NCBI GenBank assembly: GCA_009695465.1
Contig: SIAW01000001.1
Location: forward strand, 7,092 to 71,091
Direction: 5' to 3'
DNA length: 64,000 bases
DNA from: Pedosphaera sp.
GTDB lineage: Bacteria > Verrucomicrobiota > Verrucomicrobiia > Limisphaerales > UBA1100
Shown here one piece after another: positions 31,815 to 64,000 of the stretch. Under the pieces are notes generated by a model. It had not been told where the DNA came from and did not search any database. It saw only the letters and a list, made by a program, of their open reading frames with translations. Position numbers and translations under genes: made by a program. The number at the start of each line of letters is the position of its first letter. The stretch's first letter is position 1.

Positions 31815-33290
31815 ATGACGCCCGCAGTCATCTTGGCCTGCGTGGGCGCGTACTTCGCGCTGCTGTTGGCCATCGCGTGGCGCACGGGGCGAGGCGCGGA
31901 CACGGCCGGCTACTATCTCGGCAACAAAGCATCGCCGTGGTACATCGTCGCCTTCGGGATGATCAGCGACACGCTCTCGGGCGTCACCTTCATCTCCGTG
32001 CCCGGCTCGGTGGGCGCCAACCAGTTCTCCTACTTGCAAATGGTCTTCGGCTATGTGCTGGGCTACGTCGCCATCGCGCTGGTGTTGTTGCCGCTGTATT
32101 ACCGGCTGGAACTCACTTCCATCTACGGTTACCTCGGCCAACGCTTTGGTCCGCGCGCGCAAAAAACCGGCGCGGCGTTCTTCCTGATTTCCCGCACGCT
32201 CGGCGCAGCGGCGCGACTGTACTTGGCGGCGGGCGTATTCCAGACCTTCGTGTTTGATCAATGGCACGTGCCTTTCGCGCTCACCGTCGCAGTGATGATC
32301 CTGCTGATGCTCGCCTACACCTATCGCGGCGGCATCAAGACGTTGGTGTGGACGGACACGCTGCAGTCGGCGTTCCTGCTGCTGGGCGTGGGGCTTTCGC
32401 TGGTCGCGCTGTGGCGCGGGCTGGGACTGGACTGGGACGGGCTGGTCTCGACTTTGCAGGACAGCCCGCACGCGCAGATCTTTTTCTGGGACTGGAAAGA
32501 TCCCAAATTCTTTTGGAAACAATTCCTCTCCGGCGCCTTCATCGCCGTGGTGATGACCGGGCTGGACCAGAACTCGATGCAGAAAAGCCTCTCGTGCCGC
32601 ACGCTGGGCGAGGCGCAGAAAAACATCTTCTGGTTCAGCGGCGTGATCGTGCTGGTGAACTTCCTCTTCCTCGCGCTGGGCGCGCTGCTCTACGCCTACG
32701 CGCAGTCCCAAGGCGTCGCCGTGCCGGAGAAAACCGACCAGTTCTTTCCGCTACTCGCCTTTCAACACCTCGGCACCTTCGCCGCCGTCGTCTTCGTGCT
32801 CGGCCTCACCGCTGCCACATTTTCCAGCGCGGACTCCGTGCTCACCACACTCACCACCAGTTTCTGCCTCGACATCGCGCACGACAATCGCCGCAGCGAA
32901 GCCGAGCGGACGCGCTTGCGCCATCGCGCGCACATCGGGTTTGCCGTGTTGTTGCTGCTGGTGATTTTGGTTTTCCAAGCGGTGAGCAGCCGCGCCGTCA
33001 TTGATCTGGTGCTCAAGCTCGCCACCTTCACCTACGGCCCGTTGCTGGGCCTCTTCGCGCTGGGCCTTTTCACGCGATGCCCGGTGAATGACCGGCTGGC
33101 GCCGCTAGCCTGTGTGTTGGCGCCGGTGATCTGCTGGGTGGTGGAACGCAACGCCGCTGCGTGGTTTGGCGGCTACAAATTTGGCTACGAGTTGCTGCTG
33201 GTGAACGGCGCGCTCACCGCCGCGCTCCTTTACGGATTCACACGGTTGACCGGCACAGCATCAGAGACTGAGATGGCCCAGCGCCAGTAA
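31815..33290 (+). CDS. Sodium:solute symporter (SSS) family transporter
   Basis: About 13 TM helices with SSS-like motifs ('GGIKTLVWTDTLQ', 'GLDQNSMQK'). ATG at 31815. Confidence 0.85.
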   Translation: MTPAVILACVGAYFALLLAIAWRTGRGADTAGYYLGNKASPWYIVAFGMISDTLSGVTFISVPGSVGANQFSYLQMVFGYVLGYVAIALVLLPLYYRLELTSIYGYLGQRFGPRAQKTGAAFFLISRTLGAAARLYLAAGVFQTFVFDQWHVPFALTVAVMILLMLAYTYRGGIKTLVWTDTLQSAFLLLGVGLSLVALWRGLGLDWDGLVSTLQDSPHAQIFFWDWKDPKFFWKQFLSGAFIAVVMTGLDQNSMQKSLSCRTLGEAQKNIFWFSGVIVLVNFLFLALGALLYAYAQSQGVAVPEKTDQFFPLLAFQHLGTFAAVVFVLGLTAATFSSADSVLTTLTTSFCLDIAHDNRRSEAERTRLRHRAHIGFAVLLLLVILVFQAVSSRAVIDLVLKLATFTYGPLLGLFALGLFTRCPVNDRLAPLACVLAPVICWVVERNAAAWFGGYKFGYELLLVNGALTAALLYGFTRLTGTASETEMAQRQ

Positions 33291-34148
33291 GCCGTAGTAC
33301 GTGTATTCCGCGTCCACATGCTCATCGGCCCAGTGACCGTGAAAGCCCCCTTCATTGGTCCAGAGCGTGTCGATGAAATCCAGGCAGCGTTCGTGGATCA
33401 CGTTGGGCAAACGCCGTTCCATCGCAGCGAGTGCATGCAGCGTCGTCGCGGTGGAAAGCAGATCGGGCATGGGCGCGCCGGGCACGGCGACAAATCCACC
33501 CTGCTCATGCGACTGCGCCAGCAGCCAGTCCCCCACGGCGTTGTTCACGGGAAAACCAAGATGGCGGATGAGCGTCACCGCGCCGGCGGTGGCATTGGTC
33601 GCGCCGATGGGCGTGCCGGGGAAATTGCTCCACGCATGATCCGGGGTTTCAAGGCGCTTGAGGCTTTGGATCAACTTCAGCGGCGAGGGCGGATTGCGAT
33701 CCAGATCTTGGTAAGCGCCCAGCGCCACGAACGCCCCGTAGGCCGTGCCGTGCGCCAACTTTGTATCGCCCTCGTAACCGCTATCGGGTTTGCGGAAAGA
33801 TTCGATGCGCGCGAGCAGTGCGTCGGCCAGTCCAGCGGGCATGCGCTTGGTGCCGATGGCGGCCCAACAACGGGCCAGCGCGGAGAGGTGTACAAAGTCC
33901 AGCGCTGCGCCATCGCCATGCGAGCGCAGGTACGCCTCCACTTTGTCGGCCGGCACCTCGGCGTCCAACGCCTGCAGGCCCGCGAGCGCGAAGATGGTGT
34001 AATACAGATCGGGGCGGCCCGCGCGATCCAGTCCCGCGCCGTCCGCGTTGAGTCGGCTGCGAAAGAAATCGCGCACCAATCCGGCGGAGTCGCCCAAGAG
34101 GCGCGGTGAAAGCCGGGCCACCTGCAGCAGTTGAAGGCGCAGGCTCAT
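33261..34148 (-). CDS. Prenyltransferase/squalene-oxidase-repeat (alpha/alpha-barrel) protein, resembling the beta subunit of protein prenyltransferases
   Basis: Repeated 'GGF..........D..YTYY.L.AL' units, for example 'EGGFHGHWADEHVDAEYTYYGLLALGHL', 'QGGFVAVPGAPMPDLLSTATTLHALA' and 'DSGYEGDTKLAHGTAYGAFVALGA'. The ATG at 34148 was chosen because the rest of track ORF 33261..34670 overlaps the upstream gene. Confidence 0.75.
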   Translation of the reverse strand: MSLRLQLLQVARLSPRLLGDSAGLVRDFFRSRLNADGAGLDRAGRPDLYYTIFALAGLQALDAEVPADKVEAYLRSHGDGAALDFVHLSALARCWAAIGTKRMPAGLADALLARIESFRKPDSGYEGDTKLAHGTAYGAFVALGAYQDLDRNPPSPLKLIQSLKRLETPDHAWSNFPGTPIGATNATAGAVTLIRHLGFPVNNAVGDWLLAQSHEQGGFVAVPGAPMPDLLSTATTLHALAAMERRLPNVIHERCLDFIDTLWTNEGGFHGHWADEHVDAEYTYYGLLALGHLSL

Positions 34149-34167
34149 CGAGACGCGCGCGGTGCCG

Positions 34168-35922
34168 TCAGGCGACGACCGGCTGGCGGGCCTCGTGGGT
34201 TTCGTGAACCTTGTGGGCCTTGTGCAACTCCGACTCCTGCACTTCGCTGCACCAGCCCTTGATTTCAGCCTCGTTGAAAATCTTGCCAATGACGCGGCGC
34301 AGCAGCCCTTTGAGATTTGGATTCTCCAGCTCGCGCAACGCGTGCACGGCCTCTTCCTTGTACGTGGCCAGCAACGTCTCCGCGCGCTCATCGGCCTTGA
34401 GCTTGCGATAAAGCGCCTCCACTTGTCCGGCGCCGCATCCGGCCGGGGGCTGACGACGCCACAGCGCGCCGAGCAATTCGCGCTCGCTGTCTTTCGCGCG
34501 TTCATGCGCCACGGCCAGCAGCAAGCTCGGGCGCAGGCCGGCGATGTCGTTGGTCTCGCCCGTGTCGCCCAGATCGCTGAGGTCGTCGCGGATCTGATAC
34601 GCAATGCCCAGCGCCTCGCTGTATTTGCCCAACACCCCGGAGACAGCGGCGTGCTCGGCCACGCCCGCATGGAGCGCGCCCAATTGCAGGGCGACCTCGA
34701 AGGCCGGCGCAGTTTTTTTGCGGAAGATGTCGAGCACTTGCAGCGTGGAGAGCGGCTGCGGACGTTGTTGCCAGCACAGCTCCGCGCCTTGGCCGCGGCA
34801 CAGTTCGCGCTGTCCAGCGGCGGCCACGTTCAACATCGCCGCGCGTTGTTCAGCGCTGATGTTGCACTTGCCGATGAGCCGGTAGCCTTCGCCGATGAGC
34901 AGGTCGCCCACGTTGAGCGCCACCGCCACGCCGTGTTCTTCGTGCAACGTTTTCTCGCCGTACCGTTGGGCGTCGTTGTCCTCGATGTCGTCGTGGATGA
35001 GCGATGCTTTGTGGAAGCACTCCACCGCCACGGCGATGTTTTTCAAATCTTCGGGCAACGACCCTTCGGGATGTTCGCGCAGTGCCTGACAAGCAGCAGC
35101 GGCGAGGAACGGACGCCAGCGTTTGCCCGCGCGCGCCAGCCATTCGTGGGCGATGACTTCCGTTTCGCCGTCAGGCTGACCCAGCAGCGCGGAGAGCGAG
35201 GCGGGCGTGAACCACGTGGCCACTTCATCGCGCAGCCGGCCCAAGTCCAGTCGCCGCGTGCGGTCATCGCTGGTGAGATGGATGTAATCCCAGACCCATT
35301 CCTCGTCCACGGTGGTGTTGATGCAATCATCCTGCAACAACGGGATGGCCACACCGGGCACGGCTGCGGCTTCCATGTACGGGAACGCGCGCTCCAAAAC
35401 CGAGAGGCAACTCACGCCGACGATGGCCTCGATCTTGCCGGTCTGGATGAGCGACATGACGATGGCGCTGCCTTCGGCGACGAGCACCGCGTAGCCGAGA
35501 CGCTCGGCCTCCGCTTGCAAATCTTGGATGGTGCAGAGGCCGCATTGTTTGCACAGCAGACCAAACTCGTCGAAGGGCGCCGGGCAACGGCTTTCCACGC
35601 GCAGACATTTGGGCAGCAGCAGCAGGCGCCGCTCGAACGGCACGGAGGCCAGTTGTTCGCGCCAGCTTTCGTTGTTGATCAGCACGCCCACGTAATCGCG
35701 GTAGATCGCCGGCCATCGCAGATTCGCCAGCACGCGATCGGCGTGGATCTTCAAATCCTCCACCGGCAGCGGCGGCACGGGGTTGAACTCCGCCACGTAG
35801 GCGCGCACGGCGGCCAAGGCGCGTTCGCGCTCGGGGCGCGTCTGCGGCACGTTGTCTTTCGGTTTGCGCGACAGAGGACGCGGAACCGGGCGCGGGATGA
35901 CGAGTGAGGCGGTAGTGGACAT
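34168..35922 (-). CDS. Fusion protein: N-terminal DUF116-like Cys-rich domain + C-terminal trans-polyprenyl diphosphate synthase
   Basis: N-terminal half: 'RRLLLLPKCLRVESRCPAPFDEFGLLCKQCGLC', DUF116-like. C-terminal half: 'GKRWRP', first Asp-rich motif DDIED (verified at nt 34978-34992) and second motif DDLSD (34573-34587). ATG at 35922; alternative TTG at 35940. Confidence 0.82.
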   Translation of the reverse strand: MSTTASLVIPRPVPRPLSRKPKDNVPQTRPERERALAAVRAYVAEFNPVPPLPVEDLKIHADRVLANLRWPAIYRDYVGVLINNESWREQLASVPFERRLLLLPKCLRVESRCPAPFDEFGLLCKQCGLCTIQDLQAEAERLGYAVLVAEGSAIVMSLIQTGKIEAIVGVSCLSVLERAFPYMEAAAVPGVAIPLLQDDCINTTVDEEWVWDYIHLTSDDRTRRLDLGRLRDEVATWFTPASLSALLGQPDGETEVIAHEWLARAGKRWRPFLAAAACQALREHPEGSLPEDLKNIAVAVECFHKASLIHDDIEDNDAQRYGEKTLHEEHGVAVALNVGDLLIGEGYRLIGKCNISAEQRAAMLNVAAAGQRELCRGQGAELCWQQRPQPLSTLQVLDIFRKKTAPAFEVALQLGALHAGVAEHAAVSGVLGKYSEALGIAYQIRDDLSDLGDTGETNDIAGLRPSLLLAVAHERAKDSERELLGALWRRQPPAGCGAGQVEALYRKLKADERAETLLATYKEEAVHALRELENPNLKGLLRRVIGKIFNEAEIKGWCSEVQESELHKAHKVHETHEARQPVVA

Positions 35923-36044
35923 GTAGCTATGGCTTTTCAACGGCCAACATGCGGCCGATGTTTGCTGTCTGTGTAACGGCCGCAGATTGTGCGGTGGCCG
36001 AACCGGAGTGTCGAACCCAAAAGCGGGCCAGCCTCATCGCGGGT

Positions 36045-36572
36045 TCACCACGAATTATTGTGGCGCAACCAATGCTCGGCCCCCGTGTCAATTTTCCGGA
36101 TGACATCCGCTATCTGACGCAGGTTGCAGGAGCAGCCTTCGAAAATGAACTGCATGGATTCCGGATCGAGGTTGCGATGGAAGTTGTCAGAGGCAAATCC
36201 AACCAGCGGCCCCACGGGCATCAGGTTCATCGGCTGCGCCGAGTGGTGGGCCTCGTTGCCGTACCAAGCGATGAGGTGCGCGTCGAACTGATCCAGCGTC
36301 GCGCCAAGCGCCGCCCAATCTGCCGGGGCACGTTCGGGCGCCGCCGTCGCCTCGCACAACATCTTGCCGCGTTCCGCCGCGGTGGGATTGGCCGGCCAGA
36401 GCACCTTGCCCAGATCCGCCGCGTGGCGCACGAAGGCGTGCGTATAGAAAAAGACGTTCTCGGGAACGTTCAATTGCAGGTGCCCGTGGATCTGCCCGTA
36501 GGCGTACAGCGCGAAACGGCACTGGCAGCGCACCTCTTCCAACAAGCGGAATCGGAAAGCGTTGTTGTTCAT
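36045..36572 (-). CDS. Hypothetical protein (175 aa), no recognisable family
   Basis: Diverse, non-low-complexity sequence. Its ATG overlaps the upstream ferredoxin stop (ATGA at 36569-36572). The antisense ORF 35949..36578 looks like a shadow. Confidence 0.6.
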   Translation of the reverse strand: MNNNAFRFRLLEEVRCQCRFALYAYGQIHGHLQLNVPENVFFYTHAFVRHAADLGKVLWPANPTAAERGKMLCEATAAPERAPADWAALGATLDQFDAHLIAWYGNEAHHSAQPMNLMPVGPLVGFASDNFHRNLDPESMQFIFEGCSCNLRQIADVIRKIDTGAEHWLRHNNSW

Positions 36573-37429
36573 GATTGAGTTTGATGATTCATCGCCAGCG
36601 CGGCGGCGGCCTTGGCTTTCGCCTCCCCTGCGCGACGCAAAATCTCATCGGGCGCGGGCAGGCTCATCAGCACCTCCACAGGAATGTCGCCCGCCGTGGC
36701 GAGTTTGGTCAGACATTTCTGCCGTTCAGCCAGCGCCTTCTTATCATCCCGCTCTTTGCTGAAGCGCACCTTGGCGTCATCACTGCGCTGCCGCAACGAG
36801 GCGTACACATCGCCGCCCAACAGCGCGGAGATGTCCACCTTCATCCGTTCCCGCCCAAGATCGGCGGCCGTGACGGCGTCGCCATTGATCGGACCAGCTT
36901 TGTATTTGGGGAACATGATGGCCGCCTCGGGACAGACACGACTGCAGGCCGGGCAATTGGTTTTGCAATTGTCGTTGGTCTGCACCTCGATGCGCCCAGT
37001 CGCATCCGCGCCGTACACGCCGAAGAGACAGAAGGAAAGGCACTGCATGCAGTTGGTGCAACGGTCGTAGTCAATGACCGGGAACCACGGCTTCCACTCG
37101 CCGTGCCGCGCGGCGCCGCGCTGTTCGCGGTGCCACTCCACGCGCCCGGCGATGGCCGCGGTGTCCTGTCCGGAGATGTCCTCAAAATGCACGGCGACCT
37201 GCCCCTCCGCATCTTCCGCCTGCGGCACGCGACCTTCATCGAAGCGTCCCAAAACAAGCAGCGTACTGCGATCGGCCGGCGCCACAGTGCCCGTGCCGGT
37301 GCGGGTGACGGTGTAGCCGCGCTCCAGCAATTCGGTGAGCGCCGCAAACCGATCCGCAGCGCCCAGCGGCTGCGCGCCCGCGCCCTCGTAAAGAACGACG
37401 CGCAGTGTGGTTTGGTCTTTGATGGCCAT
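36569..37429 (-). CDS. 2x[4Fe-4S] ferredoxin-domain protein with unassigned N- and C-terminal regions
   Basis: 'CTNCMQCLSFC' and 'CKTNCPACSRVCP' cluster motifs (about nt 36932-37060), flanked by ~115 aa (N-terminal) and ~110 aa (C-terminal, helical, Lys/Ala-rich) of unknown function. Confidence 0.8.
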   Translation of the reverse strand: MAIKDQTTLRVVLYEGAGAQPLGAADRFAALTELLERGYTVTRTGTGTVAPADRSTLLVLGRFDEGRVPQAEDAEGQVAVHFEDISGQDTAAIAGRVEWHREQRGAARHGEWKPWFPVIDYDRCTNCMQCLSFCLFGVYGADATGRIEVQTNDNCKTNCPACSRVCPEAAIMFPKYKAGPINGDAVTAADLGRERMKVDISALLGGDVYASLRQRSDDAKVRFSKERDDKKALAERQKCLTKLATAGDIPVEVLMSLPAPDEILRRAGEAKAKAAAALAMNHQTQS

Positions 37430-37437
37430 AAATCAGT

Positions 37438-37836
37438 TCACGTTTTCCGCGCCGCCGCCGCCGCGGCGGCCGCCTCGGTCTTGCCTTGCGGCAGATTGAG
37501 ATTCATGTCCGCGCTGGCGAGTGCGGCGCTGACTTCTTCCGCGCTTTGCGTGCGCATGTTAATCACCTCGGTGCGCTCGGCGGCAAGATCAGCACCCGCC
37601 TGATGGAACAAGCCTTTCACCGCGCGCGGGAAACAGGCGGCAATCTTCACCGCGCCACCTTCGGCCAGCCGTTTCAACGCAGGATCGCGCCGCGCCGCCA
37701 TCTCGCACAGATCCGCCACGGCATCGAAGGCCGCGCCACTCTCGCACAGCCGACGCAGCACGGCAGCCTTCACGTCCGGCGGCACCACCTGCGCGTAGGC
37801 GCAGTGGCAATACAGGATGCGCGGGGCGTCAGGCAT
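37438..37836 (-). CDS. Small Cys-containing hypothetical protein
   Basis: 'RILYCHCAYAQVVP' plus three more Cys residues. ATG at 37836; the track start at 37896 is a TTG and would overlap the upstream gene by 14 nt. No family recognised. Confidence 0.55.
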   Translation of the reverse strand: MPDAPRILYCHCAYAQVVPPDVKAAVLRRLCESGAAFDAVADLCEMAARRDPALKRLAEGGAVKIAACFPRAVKGLFHQAGADLAAERTEVINMRTQSAEEVSAALASADMNLNLPQGKTEAAAAAAAARKT

Positions 37837-37882
37837 GCGCGGGAAGTCTAGCGTGAGGATGCACGGGACGGCAACTGCGGTT

Positions 37883-39088
37883 TCAGAGTGACTCAATGCT
37901 CTCGACGCGGTGAGTGGGCACCGGTTTGCCGGGGCGGAAATATTCGAGATGCTCCAGCGCGGCCGTCAATCCGGTGAACCGCGGCGGCACCGTGGCAAGC
38001 GCGGCGCGCACGGCATCGGCCAGTGTCTGCGGCGCGGCCTCGGCGCGAAGGTTCATGATGAGTTGGCCGCTCGTCACAGGATCTTCGAGGCTCTGAGAAA
38101 GTTCGGGCACAAAGTCGCTGCGCACCAGATTGATCACCGCCACCGCGCCGCCAAACGTGTTGTCGGGATTCAAGGTCATCTTGAAATGCGCCACTTCGGC
38201 TCCCGCCGCGCGCAGTCGGGACTGCACGTCGGCAGCAAGCGCAGCGAGCACCGCATCGGAGTCAAAACCTGCGGGCGCGGCCAGCAATGCTGTGGCGTTG
38301 AGCCAGCCCAAGAGCGCCTCGCCCTCGGCGTACGTCTGATAATCCACGGTCATCACGGCGCGCGCGGTTTGTTCCGAATCGTTGACGCGCGCAAACCACG
38401 GAGCCAATCCCTCACCCGTGCGCGCGGAGATTTCCAGCAACTCCGCCTTCGGAAATTCCCGCGCCAACGCAGCGCGCAACGCAGTTCTGCGCCCGGCATC
38501 CAACGTGTCGCATTTGTTGATGACGATGAGGTCGGCCTCCTCGAGTTGCTTGAGATAAATGTAGCGAACCTTCTCGGAGAATTGGCCGCCCGTTTCCAAG
38601 CCGAGCACGCGCGCCGCGCGGACGGGATCCACCAGCACGCTCAAGGGTGCGATGGCAAAGCGATCGCCGTACATGCGGCGCAGCGGATAGGTCACTGTCG
38701 CGACGAGATCGGTGCAACTGCCCACCGGTTCGGCGATGAATACCTCCGGGCGCGCGCCTTGCGCGAGCTTGTCCGCCGCCTCGACGAGTGAATTGAAGCG
38801 GCAACAGAAACAGCCGCCGGCGATTTCCTCTGTGGCAAATCCGTGCGACCGCAGCATCGCCGTGTCCACCAACTCGCTGCCCTGATCATTGGTGATCAGC
38901 CCCACGCGCAGTCCTTGATCAGTGAGATGCCGCGCCAGTCGCGCGACGGCGGTAGTCTTTCCCGCGCCGAGAAATCCGCCCACCATGATGTAGCGCGCCT
39001 TCGATGTCGGCGCGGGATGCTGGGTTTGAGCGGCGGTCACGAAGGGAGTCTGAATCTGTTCGCGGCCAAAATCAATTGGCAAGGGCAA
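37883..39088 (-). CDS. G3E-family P-loop GTPase (CobW/HypB/UreG-like metallochaperone family) with a ~170-aa C-terminal extension
   Basis: 'GGFLGAGKTT' P-loop, 'GGCFCC' metal-binding-type motif, 'EPVGSCTD' and 'INKCD' (NKxD). Start uncertain: 39088 is a TTG. Confidence 0.8.
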   Translation of the reverse strand: MPLPIDFGREQIQTPFVTAAQTQHPAPTSKARYIMVGGFLGAGKTTAVARLARHLTDQGLRVGLITNDQGSELVDTAMLRSHGFATEEIAGGCFCCRFNSLVEAADKLAQGARPEVFIAEPVGSCTDLVATVTYPLRRMYGDRFAIAPLSVLVDPVRAARVLGLETGGQFSEKVRYIYLKQLEEADLIVINKCDTLDAGRRTALRAALAREFPKAELLEISARTGEGLAPWFARVNDSEQTARAVMTVDYQTYAEGEALLGWLNATALLAAPAGFDSDAVLAALAADVQSRLRAAGAEVAHFKMTLNPDNTFGGAVAVINLVRSDFVPELSQSLEDPVTSGQLIMNLRAEAAPQTLADAVRAALATVPPRFTGLTAALEHLEYFRPGKPVPTHRVESIESL

Positions 39089-39112: not shown

Positions 39113-39592
39113 TCACTGGATCTCCGTCCCCTTTTGCTGCTCCAAAATCTTGTCGATGGTTTTGTCCAACAACGCGCGATAGGCCGGCATGTCCAGACAC
39201 TGCGGGCCGGGCTCGCCACGCACCGCATATAACCAACCCGCGCCGTGACAATCTTTGTTGATGAGGGAAATCTTCTCGCGCAGCGCTGGGTTGACGCCGG
39301 CGAAACTGCCGCGCGCGATGCAGTACACGTCCGAGATGGCCTTGAAGCCTTCCACCCAGCCGAGGGTTTGGCCCGGCTCCACCGGCGCATCGGGCGCGGG
39401 GTCGAGACCCAAGTCCACCATCTCACCCAGCATGCGACTGGCGAATTTCGTGAGGCCCACGCGCCAGAGGCCGGGCTTATCCGGCACGGGCGCAATCCAG
39501 AAATGCGAAGGGCTGAAGAGATAATTCACCGGCAGATGCGTCACAAAATGTGAACGCCTGTAAAGCTGTGTGGCGGGTTTGCCGGTATCCAT
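39113..39592 (-). CDS. Glycine-cleavage H-protein-like (lipoyl/biotinyl-domain) protein, orphan
   Basis: 'WRVGLTKFASRMLGEMVDL...GWVEGFKAISDVYCIARGSFAGVNPAL...GAGWLY' aligns by eye with GcvH ('VGIT..A...LGD.V.V.LP...ESVKAASD.Y.P.SG....N..L'). The modifiable Lys position is conserved. ATG at 39592. Confidence 0.78.
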   Translation of the reverse strand: MDTGKPATQLYRRSHFVTHLPVNYLFSPSHFWIAPVPDKPGLWRVGLTKFASRMLGEMVDLGLDPAPDAPVEPGQTLGWVEGFKAISDVYCIARGSFAGVNPALREKISLINKDCHGAGWLYAVRGEPGPQCLDMPAYRALLDKTIDKILEQQKGTEIQ

Positions 39593-39677
39593 CTCGGGCC
39601 ACCAGCAAATCACACCCAAGCAAAGCGGGAAAGCGGGATGTGTGCGTTGCGGCTGCCTTCTGCAACAGTCAGGTTGC

Positions 39678-40120: not shown

Positions 40121-41263
40121 GTGCGTTATTTCGACCACAACGCCACGGCGCCACTGCATCCCGCGGCGCGAGTGGCGTGGCTGGAGGCGGCGGAACAATT
40201 CCCCGGCAATCCTTCCAGTCCGCATCGCGTGGGGCAGCGTGCCGATGCGGCGCTGGCTCAAGCGCGACAGCAATTGGCGACCGCGCTTGGCTGTGACGCA
40301 CTGGACATCGTGTGGACTAGCGGCGCCACTGAATCGGCTAACGCCGTCTTTCATCACACGGCGCGCACGGCTGCGTCGGGCGCGCAGGTGTGGCTTTCCG
40401 CTGTCGAACATCCGTGTGTCATCGAAGCAGCGCGGCGTTATTTTTCCGGCGCGCACCGCTTCATCCCTGTCTCTCACGCCGGCGTGGCGGACTTGAATTG
40501 GCTGGAGCAGGAGTTGAAGAAAGGCTCACCAGCATTGGTCGCGTTGATGGCTGCGAACAACGAGACGGGCGTGTTGCAACCGTGGCGCGAGGCGCAGGCG
40601 CTGTGCCGCACGGCGGGCACGCCGTTCTTTTGCGATGCGGTGCAATGGCTGGGCCGGTTGCCGGCGGCGGGACTGGGCGCGTGCGATTTTGTGAGCGGCA
40701 GCGCGCACAAATTTGGCGGGCCACGCGGGATGGGTTTGCTGAAAGTGCCGGCGCAGGGACGTTTTGAACCGCTGCTGGCGGGCGGCGCGCAAGAGGAAGG
40801 TCGGCGCGCGGGGACGGAAAATGTTGCAGGTGCGTTGGCGCTGGTGGCGGCGTTGGTAGCACGTGAACGCGAGATGGACAGTGGAGAGCGCGAGCAGTGG
40901 CGCGCGGAATTTGAGACGTGCTTGGTTGCTGAATTGCCCGGCGCAGCGATTGTCGGCGCGGACACGGCGCGACTTTGGAACACCGTGAGCGCGCTGATGC
41001 CGGAGGCGGATTGTCGGCAGCGTTGGGTGGTGAAGTTGGACAAGGCGGGATTCGCTGTTTCCACCGGCAGCGCCTGTGCCAGCGGCAAGGAAACTCCCAG
41101 TCACGTGCTCACGGCGATGGGCTACAGCGCAGCCGATGCCGGGCGGGCGCTGCGTTTTAGCAGCGGACCGGCGACCACGCGCGCAGATTGGGCGGCGTTG
41201 CTGGAGGCGTTAAAACAAGTGGCTGCGCAGGCGGAGAACTCCGCGACAGCCGCGCGCGATTAA
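40121..41263 (+). CDS. Cysteine desulfurase (class V aminotransferase, NifS/IscS-like)
   Basis: 'FDHNATAPL', 'TSGATESAN', the PLP lysine in 'SGSAHKFGGPRG' and the catalytic Cys in 'STGSACASG'. GTG start. Confidence 0.88.
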   Translation: MRYFDHNATAPLHPAARVAWLEAAEQFPGNPSSPHRVGQRADAALAQARQQLATALGCDALDIVWTSGATESANAVFHHTARTAASGAQVWLSAVEHPCVIEAARRYFSGAHRFIPVSHAGVADLNWLEQELKKGSPALVALMAANNETGVLQPWREAQALCRTAGTPFFCDAVQWLGRLPAAGLGACDFVSGSAHKFGGPRGMGLLKVPAQGRFEPLLAGGAQEEGRRAGTENVAGALALVAALVAREREMDSGEREQWRAEFETCLVAELPGAAIVGADTARLWNTVSALMPEADCRQRWVVKLDKAGFAVSTGSACASGKETPSHVLTAMGYSAADAGRALRFSSGPATTRADWAALLEALKQVAAQAENSATAARD

Positions 41264-59296: not shown

Positions 59297-62200
59297 CTAC
59301 TTGGCCGGGCGTTTGAAGCGGTAAAGTTTGCCCTCGCGATTGTGATAGATCAGCTCGAAACGCTGGTCGTCGTGCAGTCCCATCAAGAGCATCTGCGCGA
59401 TGTTGGAGTGGAAGATGTCGCGGTGCATCAGATACGCCACGCCCAGATCGTGGGCGATGACCAGATTCAAATCCGACGCGGCACTGCCGGGTGTTAAACC
59501 AGTCTGCCGTTGGCGCACCAACTCGCCTTCCACCGTGGCTCCCGAGGGCAGCTTGGCGGGTGTCGGCCCCTGCGACACGATGAAGAGCTGGTTGAGCCAA
59601 CTGCTCGGCCGATAGATTGTTTGGATTGCACGCCACGGGATTTCCACCGGCACGGCGGCGCGCGTGAATTCGTTGGGCTTGTTGGGTACCGGCGTGGCTT
59701 TTTCGCCCACGAGAACAAGGTGATCCAGCGTCACCTCCTGCACCGCGCCGATGACCACGCGCCCGTCGTGCAGCAGCGCGCCGTGGCGTTTGTCGGTGCC
59801 ATCAAACCAATGTGTCATCGCTTGCCGCGCGAAGTCCTCCAGCACCGCCGGCTCGCGCCGATCCAGTGGCGCTTGAATGACCTGCGGCGTGATGTTCACG
59901 GCAGGATGAATCATCCGCATCGCGGCGGCGACTTGTTGTCCCAACGCCTCGTTGTTGACGTTCCGGCCTGGCCCGGCCAATCCCTGCGCCACGCTTCGGA
60001 TTATCGCGATGCCTTCGGCGGCGCGGGCAGGTTCCAGCCCGGGCATGCCTCCCTGCCCTCGCGTGGTTTCATAGAGGCGCAGGTCGGCGCGATCGACCAG
60101 AAAACGGTCGCCCATGAAAATCGCCTCGGTCTGCGCGGGCAACGCCAGCGTCAGGCGAATGGGCGTCGGATAAAATGTGGGGATGGAATACTCCGCGTCG
60201 CGCGGGATAAACTGCTCGGCATCGGCGCGCAGTGCCCGCGCCAGTTCGATGGGCAGGAATTGGTAGATCTGTTCGCGCAACGCCTCGGCCATCTTTTGGA
60301 TCTTCGCCGGATCTTGCGCCGCAAATTCATCGCCCGCCTTGCCCGACGTTGGCCGCGTGAACGCCGACGGCGACGCAATGGCCGCGCGGCACGCCCAGCG
60401 ATAAGCGTTCTCGATGTCCTGTCCCTGCCCGCGCTGCTTTTGGCTCTCGTGAATCTTGGCCAGTTGCTCGCGTCCTGCGGCCCCTTTCTTGAGGGCCTCA
60501 TTGACGGCGGCAACCAGCGGCGGCGGCAACGACTTCACGTATTCATCGCGCAACAATCCCGCCAGCCGGAACTGCGCCTCGGCATGGCCCTTCTCCGCTG
60601 CCACACCAAACCAGTCGATGGCGATGCGCGGATCGGGTTTGCTGTCGGGCACACTCGCGCCAGTTTGGTGATTCAAGCCCATCTGGAATTCGCGCTCCAC
60701 CGGCCAGAGATCGCGCTCACTGAACTGGCGCATCACCTGCAGGATGGGCAGCAGTTTTTTGGGCAGATAAAAATAGATGTCGCGCGTGGGCGCGGGCGGT
60801 TGGTACTGCGCGCTGCCCAGCTCGCGCGCAATGCCGCGCGGGCCGATTTGGCCAACGGTCGGCAAGCCCGTCCAGTCATCGCGTCCGTCGCGATTGAAAT
60901 CATCCTTCTCACCCAACTCGCTCTTCATCACATGATGCACCGCCAGCGGGCCTTTCTGTGAGTACGCCTCCACTGCGAGTCGGCCGAGATTTGACACCTC
61001 CACCTTGTTGGTGGCGCTGAAAAGGCGCGCAAGAATGTAGATGTCCTCGGTCTGATTGCCGGGGTGACAGATCACGTTGCAGCCGGCGTGATACCACGTG
61101 GCGCCGCCGTAATCCCACCACGTCAACACGTAGTCGCCGGGCTTGGCATGGGCGCGCAGGGCGTCGAGGATTTCCACCGACGGCGTTTCCAGCACCGGCG
61201 GGATGCCACGGCTTTGGTCGCGCGCATGCAGCAGGTTGGGTGTCAAAAACAACACCGTCCCCGCCGTGCCCAGCGCGAAGGCGATGCGTGTCTGCCGCGT
61301 GCCCTGTTGCAATAATCCGGGCAACACACCCGCTGTCAACGCGGCCACGGCCGCCATGAGCGCCAGTGCCAGTGGCGCGTGCTTGGGCGGAACGGCCGCG
61401 TCTTCGCCGGCGAACAGGGTGGCTGTCGTGGCGTCGAGGTATTGGCCCAATACATACACGCCCACGGCCAACCCGATTAGCGCCGTCACGGCGGCGGTGA
61501 TGGCGCGCGGCCAGCCCGAGGTGGCCTCTGCGCCAGATGGCGCACGAGCGACCCATGCCACGGCGAGACCCGTCACGAGGCCGATGGCCCACGGGCCGAA
61601 GGTCAACGGCTCCGGCAACGGTCTGAAGTTGAGTGGATCATACGGCAACGGCTCGTGCAGGGCGCGTGCCAGACAAGCCCACGCGACGCCCATCACCACG
61701 GCGACGCCCAGTCCCACCAGTGCGGGCAGAGCCGGGCGCACGTGCGAAAAGAAATCGGGCTGCGAAACTGGGATGGCTGCCGGTGATGGTTGCGGACGAG
61801 CGTTTCCTCGCATGGCGAAATACACCGCGCCTCCGGCGATGAGAACCAGCAACAGGACGCTGCCGACTTTTATCGACTGCAGAACGATAGGTAGTTCATC
61901 CCAGCCCACTCCGGTGAGGTGGTCGGGGGCCAGTCCGCGCAGCACCAACAGCGACCAGACACCCAAAGCGATGGCGCCCGAACCCAGTAAAACGCGCAGG
62001 GCCAAAAGCACCGGCGGGGTGGCTTTGCCGCGAGTGACAACGGCGGTGATGGCCGCCGTGGCCGCAGCGAGCAGGGCCGCGCCGGACAGAGGCTGCTGGA
62101 ACAGCGCCGTGAAGCGGTCGCCCCAAATCCCGCCGTGCCGTGTCTCGAATTCCGAGCGCAGCAAACAACCCAGCAGCACCATCGCTAGTCCGGTGAAAGC

Positions 62201-64000
62201 GGCGATGAACGTGGGCCATTGCGCGTCGTCTTCATCGGCGGATCGCGCGAGGGTCCATCCCGCCAGCGCCGCCAGCGGCAGGAACGCCCACGGCAGAGGC
62301 GCGCCCGTGATGTTCACCAGCCAACTCCACGTCATGCCGCCCACCGCGGCCACCAACACGGCACGCACGCAGGTGCGCGCGACGGCGTGTGCGCTTTGCC
62401 AAACAAAAAGGTAAGTGAAGGACAGCCCCGCAATTGCAGCGGCGTGGATGGTGAATCGCAGCCCGCCCCACAGTGTGAACACACCGATGCCGACCAAGGG
62501 TGCCGCGATTAAAAATTCCGGATGGCGCCCCGACAGGAGCGCGTAGCCAAACAGCGCCATGATACAGCCCACCACCGTGCCGCCGATGCGCGAGCCAACA
62601 TCGCGTCCGGGAATTTCGCGCGCCTCCTGAATGGTGCTGATGACGTTCTTGAACTGTAAATCCTGTCCAGCGGCCACGACGGAGGTGCGCTCGGAGGACG
62701 GCAGGTATTGTTTGATTTTGAACGCGACCAACGAGAAGGGCGATGAGAAGAGGACCATGCCCAAAAGCGCGATCGCGCAGGCCCAGCGCAGGGAAACCAG
62801 TGGCGATGCCGGTGTGGCCTGCGGCGCGGTGGCAGCGAACAGGCGCGGGATGTATTGCACCAACACGGCGGATCCGGCCACGGCTAGAATCTTCAACAAA
62901 CATATCAGCGCTGGAATCGTGCGCGAGCCTGTCGCGTCCATGACAGGAAACATGGCGTCAACAAACAGGATGCCCAAGGCCACCGGCACGATGGATTGCC
63001 ACGCGGATGGTTGGCGGAAGCGGAACACGACTTGGTGCGCAATGAAGGCCAACCCCAGCGCGGCGGCGATGGACATGCCGGAACGATAACAGAATGGATA
63101 CATCATGATGACCCACGCGCCAGCGACGGCAGACCACAGGCAGTCGCGGCGGACGGCGCGCAGCAGGCAGTACACGATAGCCATCGGGATGGGGACGGAG
63201 AGCATGTCCGTGTCGAAATAGCCGGCCATGCTGCGGTTGTAATAGCTGTTGGCCGTCACCGCCATGAGGGCCGCGAGGAATCCCCAATACGTGAGGCCGT
63301 ACAGGCGGCCGATGAAAATCAGCGGCACCACCAAGAGGCTGCCGATGAATGCGGGCGAATAGGCCATGATTTCCTCGACCGAAATCAGGGAACCTTTGCT
63401 GGCCTTGACGGCGGTTTTTTCTGCGAGCACCAGCGCGTCGGTGACAGCGGCGTTGTTCGTTGGAATTTGCTGTGCGACTTGGCGCGCGGTCTCTGCGGCT
63501 TGTTCTGCGGTTTTGCGCAACATCTTGGGAACCAGAAACGGGCCCGCCAACGATTGTCGCGCTGCGTGGATGGCTAGGGCGGCTGCGGTTGTGGCAGTGG
63601 CGTTGTCGGCAGGCGCGGATTCTAACGCCTGGCCCGCAGCCAAAAGATGGGCGCGCGCCAAGCGCAGGTCGCGATGAACCGGGGCATTGTAAATGTCCAG
63701 CAGCTTGCTGGGGAGCAGCGTGACAGGCCCGTACTTGTAGGCGTCAGGGATTTCCGCATTGTGCTGGTGCAGCCCCAAGTGCGCCTTTTGCACGATGGCC
63801 CCGAAGAAATAGCTGTCGTGCGTGTTGGGCAATAGCTCGCCCTGCCAGTGATAGTCGGCGCGTTTCTCGGGCAGGTTGGCCTCCTCAATCCAGTACAGTC
63901 GGATGAAGGATCCCAAGCTCCACGCGATGAGGATGAGCGCCCACACGCCCCAGATGGACGGTTCGGAATGGCCAGCGGCGGGTTCGGCTGGTGGTGATGT
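59297..64000 (-). CDS. PglB/STT3-family oligosaccharyltransferase, giant variant (>=1549 aa). The N-terminus may extend past the window edge.
   Basis: WWDYG verified at nt 61106-61120. 'NTHDSYFFG', 'ANSYYNRSMAGYFDTDML', 'STIQEAREI' (TIxE) and 'GGLRFTI' (62447-62467) are present. The C-terminal 'IAQMLLMGLHDDQRFELIYHNREGKLYRFK' resembles the PglB C-terminus. The track start at 63946 is a GTG, and the frame stays open to base 64000. Confidence 0.88.
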   Translation of the reverse strand, partial: TSPPAEPAAGHSEPSIWGVWALILIAWSLGSFIRLYWIEEANLPEKRADYHWQGELLPNTHDSYFFGAIVQKAHLGLHQHNAEIPDAYKYGPVTLLPSKLLDIYNAPVHRDLRLARAHLLAAGQALESAPADNATATTAAALAIHAARQSLAGPFLVPKMLRKTAEQAAETARQVAQQIPTNNAAVTDALVLAEKTAVKASKGSLISVEEIMAYSPAFIGSLLVVPLIFIGRLYGLTYWGFLAALMAVTANSYYNRSMAGYFDTDMLSVPIPMAIVYCLLRAVRRDCLWSAVAGAWVIMMYPFCYRSGMSIAAALGLAFIAHQVVFRFRQPSAWQSIVPVALGILFVDAMFPVMDATGSRTIPALICLLKILAVAGSAVLVQYIPRLFAATAPQATPASPLVSLRWACAIALLGMVLFSSPFSLVAFKIKQYLPSSERTSVVAAGQDLQFKNVISTIQEAREIPGRDVGSRIGGTVVGCIMALFGYALLSGRHPEFLIAAPLVGIGVFTLWGGLRFTIHAAAIAGLSFTYLFVWQSAHAVARTCVRAVLVAAVGGMTWSWLVNITGAPLPWAFLPLAALAGWTLARSADEDDAQWPTFIAAFTGLAMVLLGCLLRSEFETRHGGIWGDRFTALFQQPLSGAALLAAATAAITAVVTRGKATPPVLLALRVLLGSGAIALGVWSLLVLRGLAPDHLTGVGWDELPIVLQSIKVGSVLLLVLIAGGAVYFAMRGNARPQPSPAAIPVSQPDFFSHVRPALPALVGLGVAVVMGVAWACLARALHEPLPYDPLNFRPLPEPLTFGPWAIGLVTGLAVAWVARAPSGAEATSGWPRAITAAVTALIGLAVGVYVLGQYLDATTATLFAGEDAAVPPKHAPLALALMAAVAALTAGVLPGLLQQGTRQTRIAFALGTAGTVLFLTPNLLHARDQSRGIPPVLETPSVEILDALRAHAKPGDYVLTWWDYGGATWYHAGCNVICHPGNQTEDIYILARLFSATNKVEVSNLGRLAVEAYSQKGPLAVHHVMKSELGEKDDFNRDGRDDWTGLPTVGQIGPRGIARELGSAQYQPPAPTRDIYFYLPKKLLPILQVMRQFSERDLWPVEREFQMGLNHQTGASVPDSKPDPRIAIDWFGVAAEKGHAEAQFRLAGLLRDEYVKSLPPPLVAAVNEALKKGAAGREQLAKIHESQKQRGQGQDIENAYRWACRAAIASPSAFTRPTSGKAGDEFAAQDPAKIQKMAEALREQIYQFLPIELARALRADAEQFIPRDAEYSIPTFYPTPIRLTLALPAQTEAIFMGDRFLVDRADLRLYETTRGQGGMPGLEPARAAEGIAIIRSVAQGLAGPGRNVNNEALGQQVAAAMRMIHPAVNITPQVIQAPLDRREPAVLEDFARQAMTHWFDGTDKRHGALLHDGRVVIGAVQEVTLDHLVLVGEKATPVPNKPNEFTRAAVPVEIPWRAIQTIYRPSSWLNQLFIVSQGPTPAKLPSGATVEGELVRQRQTGLTPGSAASDLNLVIAHDLGVAYLMHRDIFHSNIAQMLLMGLHDDQRFELIYHNREGKLYRFKRPAK

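What the first reader, a model, noticed from the sequence alone, without database searches (positions are those of the whole stretch)
34168..35940. DUF116-like Cys-rich domain fused in one reading frame to a trans-polyprenyl diphosphate synthase
The N-terminal ~230 aa carry the DUF116-like hallmark 'LLLLPKCLRVESRCPAPFDEFGLLCKQCGLC' (about nt 35533-35613) and further conserved Cys residues. The C-terminal ~330 aa are a complete isoprenyl diphosphate synthase: GKRWRP, DDIED at 34978-34992 and DDLSD at 34573-34587. DUF116 has no assigned function, so a covalent fusion to an enzyme of known chemistry is a rare functional clue. It may bind metal or Fe-S, or act as a membrane or partner adaptor for isoprenoid chemistry. 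The residues at -5/-4 before the first Asp-rich motif are small (Ala, Ser). In characterised synthases this correlates with products of C20 or longer; applying that here is inference only.
Basis: partly seen in the sequence, partly recalled or inferred. Interest (0 to 1): 0.6.

Follow-up and report, generated by a model that had tools for sequence, protein, structure and literature searches.

The report
Iron-sulfur-type domain fused to prenyl synthase
This lake Verrucomicrobium gene really encodes one protein joining a seven-cysteine domain of unknown function (DUF116) to an isoprenoid chain-building enzyme; the fusion is a widespread, already catalogued but unstudied family that usually sits in a conserved gene cluster for an unknown cyclic terpenoid.

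Summary
The ORF at 34168-35940(-) probably starts at ATG 35922 (584 aa).

It is not an artefact. Four DNA and four RNA runs cover it without indels. Relatives down to 35-36% identity keep the same architecture.

The fusion is not rare. It occurs across Verrucomicrobiota, Kiritimatiellae, Planctomycetota and Bacteroidota, and was noted in 2015 (Psta_0175).

New here is a conserved cluster around the gene: a ferredoxin-type protein, a radical-SAM enzyme, DUF116-synthase, an alpha/alpha-toroid protein and an 'SHC-like' class II cyclase. GcvH-like and CobW-like genes often join it. The substrate of that cyclase clade is an acknowledged open question.

The window holds a reduced version. The radical-SAM gene is replaced by a 175-aa ORF, and there is no cyclase within 64 kb.

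DUF116 is predicted as a four-stranded alpha/beta domain with seven family-wide cysteines and no solved structural relative.

Best reading (about 0.45): the synthase makes a medium or long all-trans prenyl diphosphate for this pathway, and DUF116 is an Fe-S electron-transfer module. Metal content, chain length and product are untested.

The parts
34168..35922 (-). DUF116-polyprenyl diphosphate synthase fusion gene. It is 584 aa from ATG 35922; the mechanical ORF extends to TTG 35940.
   Evidence: It is transcribed in lake metatranscriptomes. There are no indels in four independent DNA runs.
35647..35838 (-). Three soluble helices (residues 29-92) that precede the DUF116 core. They are conserved across the fusion family.
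   Evidence: AF2 model, pLDDT >90 over these residues. The representative search aligned the query over its full length.
35284..35694 (-). DUF116 (PF01976) core. It is a predicted four-stranded parallel alpha/beta domain.
35533..35607 (-). Cys-rich loop after strand 1, holding C106, C113, C124, C127 and C130 (CxxCxxC). Two further invariant Cys, C172 (35407-35409) and C200 (35323-35325), sit at the ends of strands 3 and 4.
   Evidence: Invariant in 65- and 126-sequence alignments. All seven align with a standalone Clostridial DUF116.
34450..35151 (-). trans-Prenyl diphosphate synthase domain (PF00348). It carries GKRWRP, FARM DDIED 34978-34992 and SARM DDLSD 34573-34587.
33261..34148 (-). alpha/alpha-toroid 'Prenyltrans' protein (295 aa), 19 nt downstream of the fusion gene. 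The canonical Zn ligands and the DxDD acid are absent.
   Evidence: It lies within 1 kb downstream in 38/79 loci. An RNA contig spans the junction with the fusion gene.
36045..36572 (-). 175-aa ORF with no family match. It occupies the position where most relatives carry a radical-SAM gene.
36569..37429 (-). 286-aa protein with a 2x[4Fe-4S] ferredoxin-type domain. It is the conserved upstream partner.
37438..37896 (-). 152-aa Cys-containing protein. In Kiritimatiellae, Planctomycetota (L088) and Bacteroidota it is fused to the N-terminus of the ferredoxin-type protein.
37883..39088 (-). CobW/G3E-family GTPase, a putative metallochaperone.
39113..39619 (-). GcvH-like protein. It retains the lipoyl-lysine motif context (VEGFKAISDVY).

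Best explanation
The gene encodes a two-domain enzyme belonging to a widespread, uncharacterised terpenoid pathway of PVC and FCB bacteria.

The C-terminal domain is an active all-trans (head-to-tail) prenyl diphosphate synthase. It probably makes a medium or long chain of C20 or more. Small Ala/Ser at -5/-4 favour length, and an invariant Phe at -8 may act as a floor.

The N-terminal DUF116 domain is a flavodoxin-like alpha/beta module. Its seven invariant cysteines probably hold iron-sulfur cluster(s), and it serves as a built-in electron-transfer station. It would receive electrons from the co-transcribed ferredoxin-type protein, which is encoded here as two genes (u152 + Fer4). It would pass them to a redox step acting on the prenyl chain. 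In most relatives that step is the radical-SAM enzyme encoded immediately upstream.

The downstream alpha/alpha-toroid protein, and in fuller clusters the 'SHC-like' class II cyclase, would take the prenyl product onward to a cyclic polyprenoid.

Shown: the domain identities, the fusion, its conservation, the cluster, and transcription. Inferred: Fe-S content, direction of electron flow, chain length and end product.
For: Domains and motifs are confirmed.

Seven Cys are invariant in 126 fusion proteins and all are shared with a standalone Clostridial DUF116.

The AF2 models are confident: pLDDT 88.6 and pTM 0.85 for the full length, and 88.0 for the N-domain. They show four parallel strands, with three Cys at strand ends and a CxxCxxC loop.

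Neighbourhood in six distant lineages:
- Radical SAM lies immediately upstream in 6/6.
- A ferredoxin-type protein is present in at least 4/6. A 260-aa gene without a Pfam hit sits in that position in a fifth.
- The toroid is present in 5/6, one of them split.
- An SHC-like cyclase is present in 4/6.
- A NuoF-like gene (L088 only) and GltD-like genes (L088, L085) lie next to the cluster.

Among 87 loci analysed, nearly all Verrucomicrobiota, with enough flank: radical SAM is adjacent in 42/77, Fer4 in 38/68, and the toroid in 38/79.

Standalone DUF116 genes also lie near radical-SAM genes. In Acetoanaerobium the neighbour is rlmN. In a Bipolaricaulota terpenoid cluster the neighbours are HpnH, SHC and a polyprenyl synthase.

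RNA contigs span u152-Fer4-u175-fusion and fusion-toroid. RNA depth is about 5-10 times higher over u152 to the fusion gene than over cobW/gcvH in three of four runs.

The literature describes an 'SHC-like' clade of unknown function in PVC+FCB. It is sister to cyclases of head-to-tail polyprenyl substrates, and its context suggests non-squalene precursors.
Against: No metal or redox measurement exists for any DUF116 protein.

The window itself lacks both a radical-SAM gene and an SHC-like cyclase within 64 kb. In roughly 45% of Verrucomicrobial loci the fusion gene has no adjacent radical SAM. The DUF116 domain must therefore be useful without an adjacent partner.

Two unrelated radical-SAM types occupy the same position: a SPASM-like type of about 390 aa, and a B12-domain-like type of about 515 aa in Planctomycetota. 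This weakens the idea of one fixed partner.

Synteny within one phylum may partly reflect descent.

The synthase domain departs from the canon: RYG instead of RRG, GQGxE instead of GQxxD, and a degenerate region VII. Its activity is not guaranteed.

I could not inspect model coordinates, so the cluster geometry and the distance to the active site are unknown.
Confidence: 0.45

Rival explanations
1. It is a housekeeping prenyl diphosphate synthase, for example for the menaquinone side chain or as a general FPP/GGPP supply. DUF116 acts as a redox, oxygen or iron sensor that switches the enzyme on or off. The neighbouring genes are only loosely related.
For: The gene is very widely conserved in Verrucomicrobiota (at least 572 stretches in the one-genome-per-species collection). 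It often stands without cluster partners. The window's surroundings are housekeeping genes. Fe-S domains commonly act as sensors (general knowledge).
Against: No NCBIfam equivalog model for FPP, GGPP, hexa-, hepta-, octa- or solanesyl-diphosphate synthases is reached. The best is 126 bits against a cut-off of 450. In every distant lineage examined a radical SAM lies directly upstream, sometimes overlapping the fusion gene. Standalone DUF116 exists without any synthase to regulate.
Confidence: 0.2
2. It is a truly bifunctional enzyme. The DUF116 Fe-S domain itself catalyses a reductive reaction on the allylic diphosphate or its product, analogous in spirit to IspH/IspG chemistry. The fusion channels the synthase product into that site.
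For: Covalent fusion with constant spacing over deep divergence and a high pTM of 0.85 suggest a fixed inter-domain geometry. Dedicated low-potential electron suppliers lie nearby: the Fer4 protein, plus NuoF/GltD-like genes in L088 and a GltD-like gene in L085. A standalone DUF116 sits next to IspH in a Bipolaricaulota terpenoid cluster.
Against: Standalone DUF116 in Clostridia sits in a translation-related operon (def-fmt-rsmB-rlmN) with no isoprenoid genes. In archaea it sits next to sulfite/nitrite-reductase or ArsA-type genes. This argues for a generic redox role rather than prenyl-specific catalysis. No substrate-binding pocket has been identified.
Confidence: 0.2
3. DUF116 is a structural zinc or cysteine scaffold. 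It would act as an oligomerisation or docking domain for the toroid or cyclase, with no redox role.
For: Seven Cys could equally bind Zn. There is no canonical ferredoxin CxxCxxCxxxCP motif. The Foldseek hits are generic Rossmann or flavodoxin-like domains.
Against: The Cys positions, at strand ends plus a CxxCxxC loop, are typical of cofactor sites. The domain consistently co-occurs with Fe-S and radical-SAM proteins and electron-input modules. The 2015 comparative analysis reached an electron-transfer prediction.
Confidence: 0.1
4. The fusion is an assembly or frameshift artefact that joins two separate genes.
For: None found.
Against: Four DNA runs and four RNA runs show no indel, and the domain junction lies inside single contig pieces. 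Thousands of collinear homologues come from independent sources.
Confidence: 0.01

Closest known systems
DUF116-polyprenyl synthetase fusion proteins of PVC bacteria (e.g. Psta_0175 of Pirellula staleyi, noted by Makarova et al. 2015, PMC5898192)
   Same: Same two-domain order. It is collinear with database proteins annotated 'polyprenyl synthetase family protein' or 'geranylgeranyl diphosphate synthase type II'. The same seven Cys and both Asp-rich motifs are present.
   Different: Nothing in this family has been characterised, so the match identifies the family but not the function. The window's locus is a reduced form of the usual cluster, with no radical SAM and no SHC-like cyclase.
Standalone DUF116 / COG1852 / arCOG02078 proteins
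   Same: The Pfam score is well above threshold. All seven Cys are shared with a Clostridial member. The fold is predicted flavodoxin-like, as inferred in 2015.
   Different: Archaeal members carry two N-terminal TM helices. This protein has three soluble helices instead. The standalone members examined sit in other contexts: def-fmt-rsmB-rlmN in Clostridia, and sulfite-reductase or ArsA genes in methanogens.
Characterised short- and long-chain trans-prenyl diphosphate synthases (P. horikoshii GGPPS 1wy0, E. coli IspA 1rqi, octaprenyl-PP synthases)
   Same: Regions I-VI are present, including FARM DDxxD without insertion and SARM. The -5/-4 residues are Ala/Ser as in long-chain enzymes such as T. 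maritima OPPS (that comparison is from memory). The best PDB sequence match is 1wy0 at 90 bits.
   Different: It has an extra N-terminal domain of about 250 aa, RYG instead of RRG, GQGxE instead of GQxxD, and a degenerate region VII lacking the first GK. It is far below all NCBIfam equivalog cut-offs.
Hopanoid / sporulenol-type clusters (polyprenyl synthase + class II cyclase + radical SAM HpnH)
   Same: The general logic matches: a prenyl synthase, a beta-gamma class II cyclase with an intact DxDD ('DADDT'), and a radical-SAM tailoring enzyme.
   Different: No squalene synthase or HpnCDE genes lie in the cluster. The cyclase scores 88-128 bits against cut-offs of 323-431 for SHC models, and the radical SAM scores 39-48 bits against 225 for HpnH. 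The extra toroid, ferredoxin-type, GcvH-like and CobW-like genes have no counterpart.
Protein prenyltransferase beta subunits (for the downstream toroid protein)
   Same: There is weak sequence similarity (E about 6e-4) and the same alpha/alpha-toroid repeat pattern.
   Different: The zinc ligands Asp-x-Cys and His are replaced by Asp-x-Glu and Tyr. No Cys is invariant, and there is no alpha-subunit gene.

Membership tests
Pfam PF01976 (DUF116) | HMM score above the gathering threshold | tested here: met
   120.6 bits against a cut-off of 25, covering profile positions 19-154 of 155.
Pfam PF01976 (DUF116) | Conserved cysteine set including CxxCxxC | tested here: met
   C106, C113, C124, C127, C130, C172 and C200 all align with Cys of the standalone Acetoanaerobium DUF116. 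They are invariant in the fusion family.
arCOG02078 (archaeal DUF116, membrane form) | Two N-terminal transmembrane helices | tested here: not met
   The N-terminal 92 residues are polar or amphipathic and are modelled as three soluble helices. The feature is described.
DUF116 as an Fe-S / electron-transfer protein | Binds iron-sulfur cluster(s) and is redox active | not testable with these tools
   There is only indirect support: the Cys pattern, the predicted fold and the neighbouring genes. No solved structure or relative exists in the PDB.
trans-Isoprenyl diphosphate synthase, head-to-tail (PF00348) | HMM score; region I GKRxR; FARM DDxxD; SARM DDxxD; KT motif | tested here: met
   140 bits against a cut-off of 27. 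GKRWRP, DDIED, DDLSD and K403-T404 are invariant.
trans-Isoprenyl diphosphate synthase, head-to-tail (PF00348) | Canonical RRG after FARM, GQxxD, and region VII GK..D...GK.T | tested here: inconclusive
   The family consensus has RYG, GQGxE and 'D..G.RPS'. These are conservative but non-canonical, so the effect on activity is unknown.
Specific synthases (FPPS IspA, GGPPS CrtE/IdsA, hexa-, hepta-, octa-, solanesyl-PP synthases) | NCBIfam equivalog score above the curated cut-off | tested here: not met
   The best is 126 bits against 450. All 16 models are far below their cut-offs.
DUF116-polyprenyl synthase fusion family (PVC/FCB) | Full-length collinear homology with both domains in the same order and spacing | tested here: met
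   Identity runs from 82% down to 35%, with conserved motif positions.
Conserved 'Fer4 - radical SAM - DUF116-PPS - toroid - SHC-like' cluster | Ferredoxin-type protein upstream and toroid protein directly downstream on the same strand | tested here: met
   Window genes 36569-37429 and 33261-34148. Co-transcription is supported by RNA contigs.
Conserved 'Fer4 - radical SAM - DUF116-PPS - toroid - SHC-like' cluster | Radical-SAM gene immediately upstream and SHC-like cyclase nearby | tested here: not met
   tblastn with three radical-SAM and two cyclase queries found nothing in the 64-kb window at 1e-4. The u175 ORF occupies the radical-SAM slot.
Protein prenyltransferase beta subunit (for the neighbouring toroid) | Zn site Asp-x-Cys ... 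His and a partner alpha subunit | tested here: not met
   The aligned positions are D-A-E and Tyr. No Cys is invariant and there is no PPTA-repeat gene nearby.

The most novel reading that the evidence does not exclude
The DUF116-synthase fusion is the entry enzyme of a still-unknown, phylum-spanning pathway in Verrucomicrobiota, Kiritimatiellae, Planctomycetota and Bacteroidota. The pathway would build a regular head-to-tail polyprenyl chain. It would modify the chain with a radical-SAM enzyme, fed by a dedicated Fe-S wire consisting of the ferredoxin-type protein and DUF116. It would then cyclise the chain with the orphan 'SHC-like' cyclases. This would yield a new class of bacterial cyclic polyprenoid lipids and give DUF116 its first function, as an Fe-S redox partner of radical-SAM enzymes.
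Probability: 0.3. Interest if true: 0.75.

Novelty: new variant of a known kind. Interest (0 to 1): 0.5.

Why it matters
DUF116 is an old, broadly distributed domain with no function, no structure and almost no literature. The 'SHC-like' class II cyclases of PVC and FCB bacteria are explicitly listed as an unsolved clade whose substrate is unknown (PMC12414744, PMC7306690).

This analysis links both to one recurrent gene cluster and identifies cultured carriers: Chthoniobacter flavus Ellin428, Labilibaculum filiforme and Ca. Uabimicrobium amorphum. Pirellula staleyi is a further carrier according to the literature. That turns two open annotations into a concrete co-expression and lipidomics experiment.

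If the product is a new cyclic polyprenoid, it could also matter for interpreting orphan terpane biomarkers.

For this particular window the value is more modest. It holds a confirmed, expressed member of the family in a reduced cluster.

Tried and rejected
- **Artefact or frameshift:** rejected.
- **PDB relatives of the N-domain:** none by profile (best E=2.1). By fold the best is E=0.017 with TM<=0.27, and only generic B12-binding, flavodoxin-like or DPOR-type alpha/beta hits appear.
- **First genome locus scan:** the 24-sequence alignment had no stretch conserved enough. A 6-sequence alignment worked but returned only close Verrucomicrobial loci. Distant contexts therefore had to come from single-protein look-ups.
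- **Chain length from NCBIfam equivalogs:** no model is reached.
- **Toroid as protein prenyltransferase or class II cyclase:** the Zn ligands and the DxDD acid are absent.
- **Cluster radical SAM as HpnH, and cyclase as true SHC:** both score far below the cut-offs.
- **Literature on DUF116, COG1852 and PF01976:** only the 2015 comparative-genomics paper and one figure legend turned up. No paper describing the cluster was found. The supplement of PMC7306690 that describes the SHC-like context is not held.
- **Promoter and terminator scan:** one promoter-like site in the 122-nt gap upstream of the gene, which is no more than chance.
- **Systematic survey of standalone DUF116 neighbourhoods:** not feasible. 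Ranked outputs are saturated by the fusion family, so only one Clostridial example was examined.
Full report
**1. Observation**

The minus strand carries one open frame, 34168..35940 (590 aa from TTG). The sequence upstream shows an ATG at 35922. The 99%-identical database protein P0001 is 584 aa, so I number from that Met.

Pfam gives DUF116 (PF01976) at 120.6 bits, E=5.4e-35, and polyprenyl_synt (PF00348) at 140 bits, E=9.9e-41.
- DDIED at 34978-34992.
- DDLSD at 34573-34587.
- GKRWRP.
- Ala306 and Ser307 at -5/-4.
- The Cys-rich stretch ends at 35533.

The stop codon (34168-34170) is followed after 19 nt by the ATG of the next gene.

**2. Not an artefact**

Logan contigs from four DNA runs, from at least three freshwater or lake studies, cover 33900-36100. 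They show substitutions only, with no inserted or deleted letters and no joints. The domain junction (about 35137-35190) lies inside one piece, 34975/34978-35443, in every run.

Four metatranscriptome runs give the same picture.

Independently, more than 6,800 database proteins match the full-length query at E<=1e-5, and all 120 listed carry both domains. A library of 50%-identity representatives, searched with the N-terminal 206 residues alone, returns 892 clusters at E<=1e-3. The best 150 are almost all proteins of 480-640 aa, or fragments of such. They have CxxCxxC near residue 115 and DDxxD near residues 300 and 435.

**3. How common and how known**

The 80 best are Verrucomicrobiota (Limisphaerales/Pedosphaera and Chthoniobacterales), including Chthoniobacter flavus Ellin428.

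A profile of distant members finds the same architecture in Kiritimatiellae, Planctomycetota (Ca. Uabimicrobium, Tepidisphaeraceae) and the Bacteroidota isolate Labilibaculum filiforme.

Makarova et al. [quoted passage not shown] They predicted a flavodoxin-like, metal-binding, electron-transfer protein.

So the fusion is real but neither rare nor newly seen. Its function is still unknown, and my searches found no further literature on DUF116.

**4. Anatomy of the protein**

In alignments of 65 and 126 family members, seven cysteines are invariant: C106, C113, C124, C127, C130, C172 and C200. P104, D118 and G121 are also invariant.

All seven Cys align with cysteines of a 173-aa standalone DUF116 from Acetoanaerobium. 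They therefore define the domain, not just the fusion.

AlphaFold2 with a 126-sequence alignment gives confident models. The full length has pLDDT 88.6 and pTM 0.85; the N-domain alone has pLDDT 88.0.
- Residues 29-92 form three helices.
- Residues 99-195 form a four-stranded parallel alpha/beta unit.
- C106, C172 and C200 sit just after strands 1, 3 and 4.
- The C113...CxxCxxC loop follows strand 1.

These are the classic positions for a cofactor site.

Foldseek against the PDB finds nothing significant (best E=0.017, TM<=0.27). There are only faint B12-binding, flavodoxin-like and DPOR-type hits. A profile search of PDB sequences is empty. No TM helix is present, unlike the archaeal members described.

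The synthase half keeps regions I-VI of trans-prenyl synthases: GKRWRP, FARM, GD, GQ, KT and SARM.

It also shows family-wide departures. It has RYG for RRG, GQGxE for GQxxD, and a degenerate region VII ('D..G.RPS').

Its best solved relative by sequence is P. horikoshii GGPPS at 90 bits. It reaches none of 16 NCBIfam synthase models.

Ala/Ser at -5/-4 argue for products beyond C15-C20. The invariant Phe303 at -8 could be the next floor. Both points are inference from established structure-function work on this enzyme class and were not tested here.

**5. The neighbourhood is the main clue**

In the window, seven minus-strand genes are tightly packed:

| Gene | Coordinates | Spacing to next gene |
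|---|---|---|
| GcvH-like (lipoyl-Lys context VEGFKA retained) | 39113-39619 | 24-nt gap |
| CobW-type GTPase | 37883-39088 | 14-nt overlap |
| u152 | 37438-37896 | 8-nt gap |
| 2x[4Fe-4S] ferredoxin-type protein | 36569-37429 | 4-nt overlap |
| u175 | 36045-36572 | 122-nt gap |
| Fusion gene | 34168-35922 | 19-nt gap |
| 295-aa alpha/alpha-toroid 'Prenyltrans' protein | 33261-34148 | (last gene) |

tblastn of these proteins against 84 related loci shows the same order recurring.

Distant lineages reveal the fuller form:
- Labilibaculum (L085), Kiritimatiellae (L087), a Planctomycetota MAG (L088) and a further contig all carry: ferredoxin-type protein, radical SAM, DUF116-synthase, toroid and an SHC-like cyclase of 585-611 aa.
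- Ca. Uabimicrobium (L086) adds GcvH, CobW and u107 but has no cyclase within the flank.
- L089 keeps only radical SAM plus the fusion gene.

Radical SAM is directly upstream in 6/6, sometimes overlapping the fusion gene.

In L088 a NuoF-like gene and a GltD-like NAD(P)H oxidoreductase gene lie beside the cluster. In L085 a GltD-like gene does. These are plausible electron-input modules.

Across all loci with enough flank, radical SAM is adjacent in 42/77, Fer4 in 38/68 and the toroid in 38/79.

u152 is fused to the ferredoxin-type protein in L085, L087 and L088, so the two window genes are one functional unit.

Two unrelated radical-SAM types fill the slot. One is a SPASM/NirJ-like type of about 390 aa. 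The other, in Planctomycetota, is a B12-domain/MiaB-like type of about 515 aa. Neither is HpnH.

The cyclases have an intact DxDD ('PDADDT') but score only 88-128 bits on SHC models with cut-offs of 323-431.

Their taxonomic range and divergence match the 'SHC-like' clade that two phylogenetic studies describe. Those studies call it functionally unknown and sister to epoxy-polyprenyl (head-to-tail) cyclases, with a context suggesting a non-squalene precursor. The identification with that clade is my inference.

The toroid protein is a conserved family of its own. The farnesyltransferase-beta Zn ligands are replaced (D-x-E, Tyr). The position of the DxDD acid reads PDLLST, and no Cys is invariant.

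**6. The window's version is reduced**

No radical-SAM or SHC-like gene is detectable in the 64 kb. u175, which has no family match, sits where the radical SAM normally is.

The closest relatives (L003, L004, L033; 82% identity) share this arrangement. Some other loci have both u175-like and radical-SAM genes.

Whether the missing genes lie elsewhere in this genome cannot be told from the window.

**7. Expression**

In four lake metatranscriptomes, RNA-derived contigs of a strain about 99% identical span 35414-37827/37915. That covers u152, Fer4, u175 and the 5' part of the fusion gene.

Other RNA contigs span 33791/33834-34909/34914, covering the 3' part of the fusion gene and the start of the toroid gene.

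One contig spans 37062-39572, covering Fer4 to GcvH.

Contig depth is about 26-59 over u152 to the fusion gene. It is about 2-10 over cobW/gcvH in three of the four runs.

Contig depth is a poor expression measure and DNA carry-over is possible. However, flat DNA contamination would not give this step.

The single promoter-like match in the 122-nt gap is no more than chance.

**8. Standalone DUF116 contexts**

In Acetoanaerobium the gene lies in priA-def-fmt-DUF116-Zn-peptidase-rsmB-rlmN-prpC-prkC. It is two genes from the radical-SAM methyltransferase RlmN.

A Bipolaricaulota preprint figure lists a DUF116 gene in a terpenoid cluster with IspH, SHC, the radical-SAM HpnH and a polyprenyl synthase.

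In archaea the neighbours are sulfite/nitrite-reductase parts or ArsA-type ATPases.

The common thread is Fe-S and radical-SAM redox enzymes rather than isoprenoids as such.

**9. Interpretation**

Most likely (about 0.45): the synthase supplies an all-trans prenyl diphosphate to a specialised pathway. DUF116 is an Fe-S electron-transfer module wired between the ferredoxin-type protein and a redox step on the prenyl chain. In most relatives that step is the adjacent radical SAM.

Rivals:
- A housekeeping synthase with a redox-sensing domain (0.2).
- DUF116 as a reductive catalytic site on the prenyl substrate (0.2).
- A Zn scaffold (0.1).
- An artefact (0.01).

Fe-S content, chain length, partner contacts and end product are all untested.

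**10. Verdict**

This is a correct observation of a catalogued but uncharacterised fusion family, so the fusion alone is of moderate interest.

The added value is the cluster. It ties DUF116 to radical-SAM and ferredoxin partners. It also ties this synthase to the orphan SHC-like cyclases, which makes both questions experimentally approachable in cultured carriers.

Noticed in passing
window 36045-36572 (-): A 175-aa ORF with no Pfam or NCBIfam match sits exactly where most relatives carry the radical-SAM gene. Weak homologues (30-36%) occur in a few other loci, between Fer4 and the radical SAM.
   Followed up: partly
window 37438-37896 and 36569-37429 (-); L085, L087, L088: The 152-aa Cys-containing protein and the ferredoxin-type protein are separate genes here and in Uabimicrobium. 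They form a single fused protein in Kiritimatiellae, Bacteroidota and one Planctomycetota MAG.
   Followed up: partly
L086 8413-9948, L088 7448-9019 versus L085 8668-9861, L087 8797-9987: Two unrelated radical-SAM families occupy the same slot upstream of the fusion gene. One is B12-domain/MiaB-like (about 515 aa, Planctomycetota). The other is SPASM/NirJ-like (about 390 aa, elsewhere).
   Followed up: partly
L088 10670-11128 and 11233-11445: The toroid gene is split into 152-aa and 70-aa ORFs that match its N- and C-terminal parts. This is either a pseudogene or a sequencing error in that MAG.
   Followed up: partly
L001 11807-17840: In one Verrucomicrobial genome an RND efflux operon and a regulator lie between the fusion gene and the toroid gene. 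The toroid gene there is convergent with a lipoyl synthase gene.
   Followed up: no
window 37800-38000: RNA contig depth drops about 5-10-fold between u152 and cobW in three of four metatranscriptomes. This hints at an internal transcript start or processing site inside or just after cobW.
   Followed up: no
window 34862-35009 and 35380-35453: Unitigs break and k-mer depth spikes at the FARM region and at one DUF116 segment in all runs. The likely cause is words shared with related genes of other community members.
   Followed up: no
window 59297-63946 (-): A 1549-aa protein with STT3/PglB oligosaccharyltransferase domains. This enzyme class uses polyprenyl-linked glycans, and the protein is unusually large.
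   Followed up: no
window 81-6812 (+): A 2243-aa ORF with TPR repeats and an F5/8 type C (discoidin) domain.
   Followed up: no
window 40121-41263 (+): A class-V aminotransferase (cysteine-desulfurase-like fold) is divergently transcribed from the GcvH-like gene. The same arrangement occurs in L003/L004. A link to Fe-S or sulfur supply for the cluster is possible.
   Followed up: no
L090 (NZ_CP154629.1): A 2.63-Mb 'plasmid' record of Acetoanaerobium noterae carries priA-def-fmt-rsmB-rlmN-prkC. It is evidently a chromosome filed as a plasmid.
   Followed up: no
L006, L010, L015, L019, L038 and others: Several MAGs carrying this typical Verrucomicrobial locus are titled Akkermansia muciniphila, Klebsiella, Bifidobacteriaceae, Proteobacteria or Haliangiales. 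These are probably mislabelled or mis-binned records.
   Followed up: no
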